Positions 39,361 to 39,444 of a stretch of DNA of 64,000 bases are shown here, piece by piece; position 1 is the first letter of the stretch, and every line of letters starts with the position of its first letter. The notes below the pieces were generated by a model that worked only from the letters and a program-made list of their open reading frames with translations, had not been told where the DNA came from and did no database searches. Source of the stretch: Escherichia coli (GTDB lineage Bacteria > Pseudomonadota > Gammaproteobacteria > Enterobacterales > Enterobacteriaceae). A program made the translations under genes and the position numbers. The stretch lies in assembly GCF_045037415.1 (NCBI RefSeq), contig NZ_CP173438.1; one strand, written 5' to 3'.

Positions 39361-39444
39361 GTGATTGATAAAGCAATCATCGTTCTTGGGGCGTTAATTG
39401 CGCAGCTGGAACTGATCCGCTTTCTGCTTCAGCTTCTGAACTGA
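39361..39444 (+). CDS. dinQ: type I toxin peptide DinQ (27 aa, single TM helix)
   Basis: GTG-initiated ORF translating to MIDKAIIVLGALIAQLELIRFLLQLLN, matching remembered DinQ; GGAG 7 nt upstream; convergent with gor as in K-12. Confidence 0.6.
   Translation: MIDKAIIVLGALIAQLELIRFLLQLLN

What the first reader, a model, noticed from the sequence alone, without database searches (positions are those of the whole stretch)
39361..39444. DinQ type I toxin ORF retained next to the ars deletion, with no recognisable LexA box upstream
A GTG-initiated 27-codon ORF encodes MIDKAIIVLGALIAQLELIRFLLQLLN, the DinQ membrane toxin, with an SD and a strong downstream terminator. By eye, the 330 bp upstream contain no canonical LexA box (CTGT-N8-ACAG), and only one bidirectional hairpin (39203..39231) that could end an agr-like antisense RNA. 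The neighbouring deletion may therefore have altered the SOS promoter or the AgrB antitoxin RNA of this toxin-antitoxin module.
Basis: partly seen in the sequence, partly recalled or inferred. Interest (0 to 1): 0.5.

Follow-up and report, generated by a model that had tools for sequence, protein, structure and literature searches.

The report
Promoterless dinQ toxin/antitoxin remnant in E. coli
The small SOS-induced membrane toxin gene dinQ is still present here, but a 199-base deletion between two short repeats has removed the promoters of both the toxin and its antitoxin RNA, so the module is most likely a silent fossil; about 15% of complete E. coli genomes share it.

Summary
Window 39361..39444 (+) is a GTG-started 27-codon DinQ ORF (NCBIfam DinQ equivalog, 53 bits) with an SD and a terminator. 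No LexA box lies upstream: the best PWM score is 2.2 bits, against 24 bits for the K-12 dinQ box.

The cause is not the ars deletion. 303 complete genomes, including NU14 and the E. coli type strain, carry the same arsR-arsB deletion with intact dinQ and agr promoters.

A separate 199-bp deletion joined two direct repeats: the 5' end of the single agr gene and the AgrB-binding site in the dinQ leader (+88..+119). It removed the agr promoter, the dinQ promoter, both LexA operators and dinQ +1..+87, including the +44 processing site needed for translation.

What remains is a complete but promoterless Agr body (39201..39285, minus strand, Rfam AgrB 91.6 bits) fused to a promoterless dinQ leader and ORF.

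E. albertii, E. whittamii, another Escherichia species and Citrobacter all keep the 274-nt spacing and the LexA box at -211/-210, so the window state is derived.

About 800 of 5426 complete E. coli genomes carry the fusion, including LF82 and NRG857c. 547 of them, the window among them, also carry DinQ L15Q.

Silence is inferred, not shown. This is an ordinary decay variant of a known system with a neat mechanism.

The parts
39361..39444 (+). dinQ ORF: GTG start, 27 codons plus stop. Carries L15Q (CAG at 39403..39405) relative to the DinQ peptide of K-12, O157, NU14, E. albertii and E. whittamii.
39350..39353 (+). Shine-Dalgarno GGAG, 7 nt before the GTG. It is part of element 4 (AUGGAG, 39348..39353), which pairs with element 3 (39333..39344) to close the SD hairpin.
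   Evidence: Element coordinates come from PMC5066626, mapped as window position = 39166 + dinQ transcript position.
39254..39360 (+). Retained part of the dinQ 5' leader, equal to K-12 dinQ +88..+194. Everything 5' of +88 is missing: promoter, two LexA operators, +1, element 1 and the +44 site.
   Evidence: BLAST to K-12 begins exactly at 39254; alignments
39254..39286 (.). Fused direct repeat GCTCTGGCTGGAGTGAGATAGCCCACATCTAAC. The left part is agr-type. The flank on its right (AAT...) is dinQ-type. This is the recombination scar of the 199-bp deletion. It is both the 5' end of the agr RNA and the AgrB-binding site of the dinQ mRNA.
   Evidence: The scar is identical in window, LF82, C 237-04 and MS10858.
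39201..39285 (-). Complete body of an Agr (AgrA/AgrB-family) antitoxin RNA gene. Its native -35 TTGCAA and -10 TAGCAT, present in NU14, are missing; the sequence upstream of its +1 is now dinQ leader.
   Evidence: Rfam RF02891, 91.6 bits; fold; promoter loss
39203..39231 (.). agr Rho-independent terminator hairpin with an A run and a T run. It is bidirectional, so it would also block plus-strand read-through toward dinQ.
   Evidence: -22.2 kcal/mol, z = -5.8
39090..39200 (.). agrB-arsR spacer, homologous to K-12 3648489..3648376. The -35 TTGACT of the ars promoter is kept at 39104..39099 (minus strand).
39027..39089 (-). Last ~49-60 nt of arsB plus the junction (39088/39089) of the arsR-arsB deletion; K-12 3648490..3650175 is missing.
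38601..39026 (-). arsC, intact at 141 aa. It is the only surviving ars gene.
39462..39490 (.). Terminator hairpin shared by dinQ and gor.
   Evidence: PMC3567139
39498..40850 (-). gor (glutathione reductase), convergent with dinQ. It fixes the synteny.

Best explanation
This is a decayed, probably silent allele of the dinQ/agr type I toxin-antitoxin locus.

Normal layout. The agr antitoxin gene and dinQ are transcribed divergently from promoters that lie between two ~33-nt direct repeats. One repeat is the 5' end of agr. The other is the AgrB-binding site at +88..+119 of the dinQ leader.

The event. In an ancestor of a large group of ars-deleted, chuA-positive (B2-type) E. coli, recombination or replication slippage between these two repeats deleted the 199 bp between them. 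That one step removed four things: the agr promoter, the LexA-controlled dinQ promoter with both operators, dinQ +1..+87 including element 1, and the +44 processing site that yields the only translatable mRNA.

The result. A full-length but promoterless Agr body is joined at the repeat to a promoterless dinQ leader (+88 onward) and ORF. The bidirectional agr terminator insulates dinQ from upstream read-through. Toxin and antitoxin were disarmed together, so no toxic intermediate arose.

Later change. In the window's sublineage DinQ acquired L15Q, a polar residue in the transmembrane helix at a position that is otherwise invariant.

Status of each step. Shown: the structure, the polarity of the deletion, its independence from the ars deletion, and its frequency. 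Inferred: transcriptional silence, the repeat-mediated mechanism, and neutrality of L15Q.
For: Structure. BLAST and MAFFT against K-12 and NU14 show that the window switches from agr sequence to dinQ-leader sequence inside the shared repeat and lacks 199 bp present in NU14.

Repeat positions. Repeats lie at -107 (dinQ leader), -306 (agrA position) and -537/-541 (agrB position) in intact loci. Fused alleles have only one, at -107.

Polarity. The distance from the agr 5' end to the GTG is 274-275 nt in NU14, E. albertii, Escherichia sp. E1V33, E. whittamii and two Citrobacter, but 76 nt in the window. The LexA box at -211/-210 scores 21.6-24.1 bits in all of these and is absent (-5.4 bits) in every fused allele.

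Independence from the ars deletion. 1105 genomes have the ars deletion. 303 of them keep the promoter segment.

Frequency. The K-12 promoter segment is missing from 815 of 5426 genomes. The junction is found at >=99% identity in 759.

Not an artefact. The scar is identical in independent complete genomes: SK1144, LF82, NRG857c, C 237-04 and MS10858.

No replacement promoter. The native P_agrA and P_agrB score 9.3 in a simple -35/-10 model. The best dinQ-direction site downstream of the agr terminator scores 4.1, and the best agr-direction site scores 5.0. Both are below the mean best score of shuffles, 8.1. The built-in scan finds none.

Translatability. Only the +44 transcript is translated; +1 and +125 are inert (PMC3567139). 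The switch needs elements 1-4 (PMC5066626). Hypothetical window transcripts starting at 39214..39254 fold with the SD hairpin closed, P(unpaired) about 0.00.

L15. It is invariant in all other DinQ sequences fetched, including Citrobacter and Kosakonia. Fused alleles with wild-type DinQ exist, so the fusion came before L15Q.
Against: Silence is not measured. Consensus promoter scoring is weak evidence: the experimentally known P_dinQ scores only about 6 in the same model, and the built-in scan misses all three known K-12 promoters.

A weak TTGCCT-16-CATTGT site sits exactly where an agr promoter would have to be. A TTGAAA-19-TAAAAA site could start transcription inside the agr terminator.

The ORF, SD and leader elements 2-4 are intact in all fused alleles examined, although those lineages differ by 0.8-1.2% in this region. 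That fits retained function as well as it fits too little time to decay: about 1 substitution is expected in 84 nt.

Read-through from gor on the minus strand could still produce Agr-containing RNA.

The LexA PWM was built from boxes recalled from memory, although its positive controls behaved correctly.
Confidence: 0.75

Rival explanations
1. Rewired but live module. The fusion turned a trans-acting pair into a cis-antisense pair, as in hok/sok. dinQ is now transcribed at low level and without LexA control from a cryptic start in or just after the agr terminator or inside the agr body. Agr is made from the weak TTGCCT-16-CATTGT site or by gor read-through, and is now perfectly complementary to its target.
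For: The ORF, SD, elements 2-4 and the full Agr body with both hairpins are intact in all fused genomes examined, although the lineages differ by about 1%. Weak candidate promoters exist on both strands. Element 1, which locks the +1 mRNA, is gone, so a transcript could in principle resemble the active form.
Against: The candidate promoters score below the shuffled-sequence mean and well below the native agr promoters. Folding predicts the SD stays sequestered in every hypothetical transcript that includes the repeat. The +125-type transcript is translationally inert in vitro. L15Q at an otherwise invariant position suggests relaxed constraint.
Confidence: 0.15
2. First reader's reading. The neighbouring arsR-arsB deletion damaged the dinQ SOS promoter or agrB; or the LexA box is merely degenerate and was missed by eye.
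For: The ars deletion is real and close, with its junction at 39088/39089. All fused alleles examined also carry it.
Against: The ars junction leaves the whole agrB-arsR spacer and the agr terminator intact. 303 genomes with the same ars deletion keep the LexA box at 24.1 bits, P_dinQ and P_agr. No degenerate box exists: the PWM maximum is 2.2 bits in the whole intergenic region, within chance.
Confidence: 0.03
3. Assembly artefact. The ~33-nt repeats were collapsed during assembly and the real genome has the intact locus.
For: The deletion end points lie in repeats.
Against: The repeats are only ~33 nt and imperfect, far below read length. The same junction occurs at >=99% identity in 759 independently assembled complete genomes, including finished references LF82 and NRG857c.
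Confidence: 0.01

Closest known systems
dinQ/agrAB type I toxin-antitoxin locus of E. coli K-12 (Weel-Sneve et al. 2013, PMC3567139; Kristiansen et al. 2016, PMC5066626)
   Same: Same chromosomal position between gor and ars. The 27-aa peptide matches at 26 of 27 residues. Same SD hairpin (elements 3 and 4), same element 2 / AgrB-binding repeat, same terminator, and an AgrB-family RNA body.
   Different: No dinQ promoter, no LexA operators, no +1..+87 (element 1, +44 site), no agr promoter, and one agr copy instead of two. The agr body abuts and overlaps its own target site, 76 nt from the GTG instead of 274-275 nt. The peptide carries L15Q.
Single-agr intact allele of B2-type strains (NU14, type strain DSM 30083) and of E. 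albertii and Escherichia sp. E1V33
   Same: NU14 has the same ars deletion junction. The single agr has the same terminator and arsR-side flank. It is the immediate structural precursor of the window allele.
   Different: It keeps the 199 bp carrying P_agr, P_dinQ, the LexA boxes and dinQ +1..+87, and it encodes wild-type DinQ.
tisB/istR-1, the other SOS-induced type I module with a divergently transcribed trans-antitoxin
   Same: Same logic: LexA-controlled toxin mRNA, an inert primary transcript activated by 5' processing, and an sRNA that pairs in the leader (PMC3567139 discussion). It is also reported lost from the B2 strain NRG857c by a ~600-nt deletion (PMC7232551).
   Different: Different peptide and locus. 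It lies outside this window and was not examined here.
Decayed chromosomal hok/sok loci of E. coli K-12, inactivated by IS elements or rearrangements (own knowledge; alluded to in PMC7232551)
   Same: A chromosomal type I toxin ORF survives while its expression apparatus is destroyed.
   Different: There the lesions are IS insertions or rearrangements. Here a single deletion between the antitoxin and its target site removes both promoters cleanly.

Membership tests
dinQ/agrB type I toxin-antitoxin system | DinQ peptide (27 aa, single transmembrane helix) | tested here: met
   NCBIfam NF041472 equivalog at 53.1 bits against a cutoff of 30. 26 of 27 residues identical to K-12.
dinQ/agrB type I toxin-antitoxin system | Position between gor and the ars operon, convergent with gor | tested here: met
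dinQ/agrB type I toxin-antitoxin system | LexA operator(s) overlapping the dinQ promoter (SOS control) | tested here: not met
   The PWM maximum is 2.2 bits against 24.0 and 12.4 bits in K-12. The segment is deleted. No pattern match.
dinQ/agrB type I toxin-antitoxin system | Primary transcript +1 with element 1 (U16-C28) and the +44 processing site that yields the translatable mRNA | tested here: not met
   The window retains only +88 onward.
dinQ/agrB type I toxin-antitoxin system | Leader elements 2, 3 and 4 and the SD hairpin | tested here: met
   Window 39260..39272, 39333..39344 and 39348..39353. Element 2 reads GCUGGAGUGAGAU against GCCGGAGUGAGAG in K-12, and the core that pairs with element 3 is kept.
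dinQ/agrB type I toxin-antitoxin system | AgrB-family antisense RNA gene (body and terminator) | tested here: met
   Rfam RF02891 at 91.6 bits, model positions 1-84 of 84.
dinQ/agrB type I toxin-antitoxin system | Constitutive sigma-70 promoter in front of agr (-35 TTGCAA, -10 TAGCAT or TAGTAT) | tested here: not met
   Deleted. The replacement sequence scores 5.0 against 9.3 for the native promoters.
dinQ/agrB type I toxin-antitoxin system | Antitoxin encoded in trans, separated from its target site by the two divergent promoters | tested here: not met
   The agr 5' end coincides with the target repeat. Spacing to the GTG is 76 nt against 274-275 nt.
dinQ/agrB type I toxin-antitoxin system | Toxicity, inner-membrane localisation, and repression by AgrB through RNase III | not testable with these tools
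   Needs expression and toxicity assays. The effect of L15Q is unknown.

The most novel reading that the evidence does not exclude
Two readings are not excluded.

(1) A built-in way to lose the module safely. The antitoxin gene shares a direct repeat with the toxin leader, and the two divergent promoters lie between the repeats. One repeat-mediated deletion therefore removes both promoters at once and silences toxin and antitoxin together, with no toxic intermediate. If so, a large B2 clade that appears to include the ST131-type lineage of this window and the AIEC strains LF82 and NRG857c has no SOS-inducible DinQ, although annotation calls the gene 'damage-inducible'.

(2) The more exotic version. 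The fusion is not dead but has become a cis-antisense, LexA-independent module.

The probability and interest given here are for version (2).
Probability: 0.15. Interest if true: 0.5.

Novelty: new variant of a known kind. Interest (0 to 1): 0.3.

Why it matters
About 800 of 5426 complete E. coli genomes (15%) carry a gene annotated as 'damage-inducible type I toxin DinQ' that has lost its LexA-controlled promoter, its activating leader and its antitoxin's promoter. These include AIEC reference strains and the abundant clinical lineage to which this window is 100% identical in the 961-bp arsC-dinQ-gor segment compared.

At least one published TA inventory called the locus 'conserved' in NRG857c on the basis of the ORF alone (PMC7232551). 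ORF-based TA catalogues and SOS-regulon lists therefore overcount DinQ in these lineages.

Mechanistically, the allele shows how the homology a trans-antitoxin needs with its target can itself cause clean loss of the whole module.

It also offers natural dinQ/agr-null backgrounds for testing what DinQ contributes, which seems to be little so far: a strain lacking six SOS toxin genes behaves like wild type for stationary-phase fluoroquinolone persistence (PMC8406316).

It does not reveal a new kind of system.

Tried and rejected
Built-in promoter scan. It found nothing in the window, but it also missed all three experimentally known K-12 promoters, so I did not rely on it. I replaced it with a simple -35/-10 weight model using K-12 controls. 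That model is still only weakly discriminating.

Two-piece spans. I first read them as agr copy-number classes. The O157 locus showed the span only reflects which agr copy BLAST joined, so I dropped that classification. I used presence or absence of the promoter segment and the NU14-type query instead.

Window arrangement as ancestral (a cis-antisense precursor later expanded by duplication). Rejected, because every outgroup down to Citrobacter has the 274-nt spacing and the LexA box.

Exact cluster look-up of the two peptides. It gave no useful variant frequencies.

Substitution density, window against LF82, C 237-04 and MS10858. There are 2 differences in 159 nt of leader plus ORF against about 1% overall, so there is no power to show relaxed selection.

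Literature searches for dinQ with ST131, B2, LF82, UPEC or clinical transcriptomes. None described this allele and none gave expression data for it.

Second dinQ or agr copy in the window. None found (Rfam; tblastn).

Full report
**1. What is at the coordinates**

The window is E. coli DNA in reverse orientation relative to K-12. The relevant genes are:
- slp, 36849..37448 (-)
- arsC, 38601..39026 (-)
- the ORF in question, 39361..39444 (+)
- gor, 39498..40850 (-)

The ORF starts with GTG, has 27 codons, and encodes MIDKAIIVLGALIAQLELIRFLLQLLN. It passes the NCBIfam DinQ equivalog at 53.1 bits against a cutoff of 30. PGAP annotates it as dinQ in genomes whose sequence over this segment is 100% identical to the window.

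It differs from the DinQ of K-12, O157, NU14, LF82, E. albertii and E. whittamii at one residue, L15Q (CAG at 39403..39405).

The SD GGAG is at 39350..39353. The downstream hairpin (39462..39490; MFE fold of that segment -21.3 kcal/mol) is the terminator shared with gor that is described for K-12 (PMC3567139).

**2. The LexA box is really absent**

No CTGT-N8-ACAG with up to one mismatch occurs between 38715 and 41075.

I built a 20-nt PWM from 28 E. coli LexA boxes recalled from memory and left dinQ out of the training set. As positive controls, it scored the two published K-12 dinQ operators at 24.0 and 12.4 bits.

In the whole arsC-gor intergenic region of the window the best site scores 2.2 bits, and 41% of shuffles do as well. 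In the 330 nt upstream of the GTG the best is -5.4 bits.

**3. Why it is absent**

Rfam finds one complete AgrB-family RNA gene on the minus strand at 39201..39285 (91.6 bits).

Its 5' end is only 76 nt from the dinQ GTG. In K-12, NU14, E. albertii, E. whittamii, Escherichia sp. E1V33 and two Citrobacter species, the nearest agr gene starts 274-275 nt from the GTG.

Alignment with K-12 and with the B2 strain NU14 shows what happened. The window follows agr sequence up to the repeat GCTCTGGCTGGAGTGAGATAGCCCACATCTAAC (39254..39286). It then continues directly with dinQ-leader sequence (AATGAGACATGC...). The 199 bp that NU14 carries between the two copies of this repeat are missing.

Those two copies sit at -306 (agr 5' end) and -107 (dinQ leader) relative to the GTG.

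I mapped the published numbering onto the window: +1 is L001 2183, and window position = 39166 + n (PMC5066626). On that scale the retained dinQ leader starts exactly at +88, the first base of the AgrB-binding region (G88-A119).

The lost segment contained:
- the agr -35 (TTGCAA) and -10 (TAGCAT)
- the dinQ promoter with both LexA operators
- dinQ +1..+87, including element 1 (U16-C28) and the +44 processing site

**4. Polarity and independence from the ars deletion**

All outgroups keep the LexA box at -211 (Escherichia) or -210 (Citrobacter) with 21.6-24.1 bits. They also keep the 274-nt spacing. The window state is therefore derived.

The ars deletion (K-12 3648490..3650175; junction at window 39088/39089) is a separate event. 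NU14 has the same junction but intact promoters.

Counts among the 5426 complete E. coli genomes:

| Feature | Genomes |
|---|---|
| arsC adjacent to the agr flank (ars deletion) | 1105 |
| ars deletion with the promoter segment kept (includes type strain DSM 30083) | 303 |
| K-12 promoter segment missing | 815 |
| Fusion junction at >=99% identity | 759 |
| dinQ ORF present | 5422 |
| ORF identical to the window (L15Q) | 547 |

About 800 genomes are therefore fused.

LF82, NRG857c, C 237-04 and MS10858 have the same scar but wild-type DinQ. The order of events is thus ars deletion, then the 199-bp deletion, then L15Q.

These fused lineages differ from the window by 0.8-1.2% over 1.5 kb. The allele is therefore not a recent clonal accident. 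With several hundred independent assemblies it is not an assembly artefact either.

**5. How it most likely works, or rather does not**

In K-12 only the +44 transcript is translated; the +1 and +125 forms are inert (PMC3567139). Activation requires removal of element 1 so that element 2 can pair with element 3 and open the SD hairpin. AgrB binding to +88..+119 recloses the hairpin and triggers RNase III cleavage (PMC5066626).

In the window neither gene has its promoter. A simple -35/-10 model gave these scores:
- 9.3 for the native agrA and agrB promoters
- 4.1 for the best dinQ-direction site downstream of the agr terminator (TGGAGT-16-AACAAT)
- 5.0 for the best agr-direction site (TTGCCT-16-CATTGT)
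- 8.1 for the mean best score of shuffled sequence

The agr terminator is a 12-bp A/T-flanked hairpin that should stop transcription in both directions. Hypothetical transcripts starting at 39214, 39233 or 39254 fold with the SD fully paired.

I therefore read the locus as a silent fossil. This is an inference. Promoter prediction is weak: the real P_dinQ scores only about 6 in the same model. No expression data for such strains turned up.

**6. Mechanistic point**

The antitoxin must share sequence with the toxin leader. Because the two genes are divergent, that shared sequence forms direct repeats flanking both promoters.

A single slippage or recombination event between the repeats removes both promoters at once. 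Toxin and antitoxin are then lost together, and no state arises in which the toxin is expressed without its antitoxin.

The same repeat family explains the variation in agr copy number. There is one copy in NU14, E. albertii and E1V33, and two in K-12, O157, E69 and E. whittamii.

**7. Comparison with what is known**

The locus is a structural variant of the published dinQ/agrAB system.

Membership features met: peptide, synteny, leader elements 2-4, Agr body.

Membership features not met: LexA operators, dinQ promoter with +1..+87, agr promoter, trans arrangement.

I found no paper describing this allele. [quoted passage not shown] NRG857c carries the fused, promoterless form: its arsC-dinQ gap is 334 nt, as in the window.

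**8. Verdict**

- This is gene decay in a known system, with a tidy mechanism and a high population frequency. Interest is low to moderate.

Noticed in passing
window 39027..39110: The arsR-arsB deletion junction (39088/39089) falls between the -35 (TTGACT, 39104..39099, minus strand) and the lost -10 of the ars promoter. arsC (38601..39026) is intact. It now sits behind a hybrid promoter (TTGACT-17-AACGCT with an upstream TG, score 8.7) and has no ArsR repressor or ArsB pump. 1105 of 5426 complete genomes share this arrangement.
   Followed up: partly
window 39403..39405: DinQ L15Q (CTG to CAG) places a polar residue in the transmembrane helix. L15 is invariant in every other DinQ fetched (Escherichia species, Citrobacter, Kosakonia). 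The allele is present in 547 genomes, all presumably within the fused class. Its effect on toxicity is unknown.
   Followed up: partly
L001, L002, L007, L008, L013-L015 (repeats at -107, -306 and -537/-541 from the dinQ GTG): The 9-nt variable core of the agr/dinQ repeat differs between lineages. It tends to match between the dinQ leader and one agr copy of the same genome: AGAGTTCTT in both in K-12; ATAGTCGTC against ATAGCCATC in NU14; AATACCATT against AATGCCATC and AATGCCCAC in O157. This suggests co-evolution or gene conversion of antitoxin and target. agr copy number (1 or 2) also varies among species.
   Followed up: partly
L017 (Kosakonia sacchari), about 330 nt upstream of its dinQ-like ORF: A DinQ-like peptide (VIDKAIIILGALIALLELIRYLLQLLN) has no LexA box within 330 nt (best 0.3 bits) and no Rfam AgrB hit in the locus. 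It may be one of the dql (dinQ-like) genes of PMC5066626.
   Followed up: no
window 39299: A G-to-T change in the retained dinQ leader (K-12 +133) is specific to the window/L15Q lineage among the four fused alleles compared.
   Followed up: no
window 38520..38563: A REP-like palindrome downstream of arsC (between arsC and the yhiS remnant) gives sub-threshold Rfam naRNA4 hits on both strands (29 and 23 bits against a gathering score of 59.5).
   Followed up: no
window 33021..33052, 17385..17498, 23278..23349: Other Rfam hits above gathering score: the shuA/chuA 5' UTR thermoregulator, GadY and the ES205 sRNA. The first means the chu haem-uptake locus is present, which fits a chuA-positive (B2/D/E/F-type) strain.
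   Followed up: no
outside the window (literature): PMC7232551 reports that NRG857c also lacks tisB/istR through a ~600-nt deletion. With the promoterless dinQ shown here, that strain would lack both SOS-induced membrane-toxin modules of this design.
   Followed up: no
H173, NZ_CP006262.1 (E. coli O145:H28 RM13516): A non-B2-looking strain also shows arsC close to the agr/dinQ region, as two joined pieces spanning 802 bp. The ars deletion or a similar one may therefore occur outside the B2-type group.
   Followed up: no
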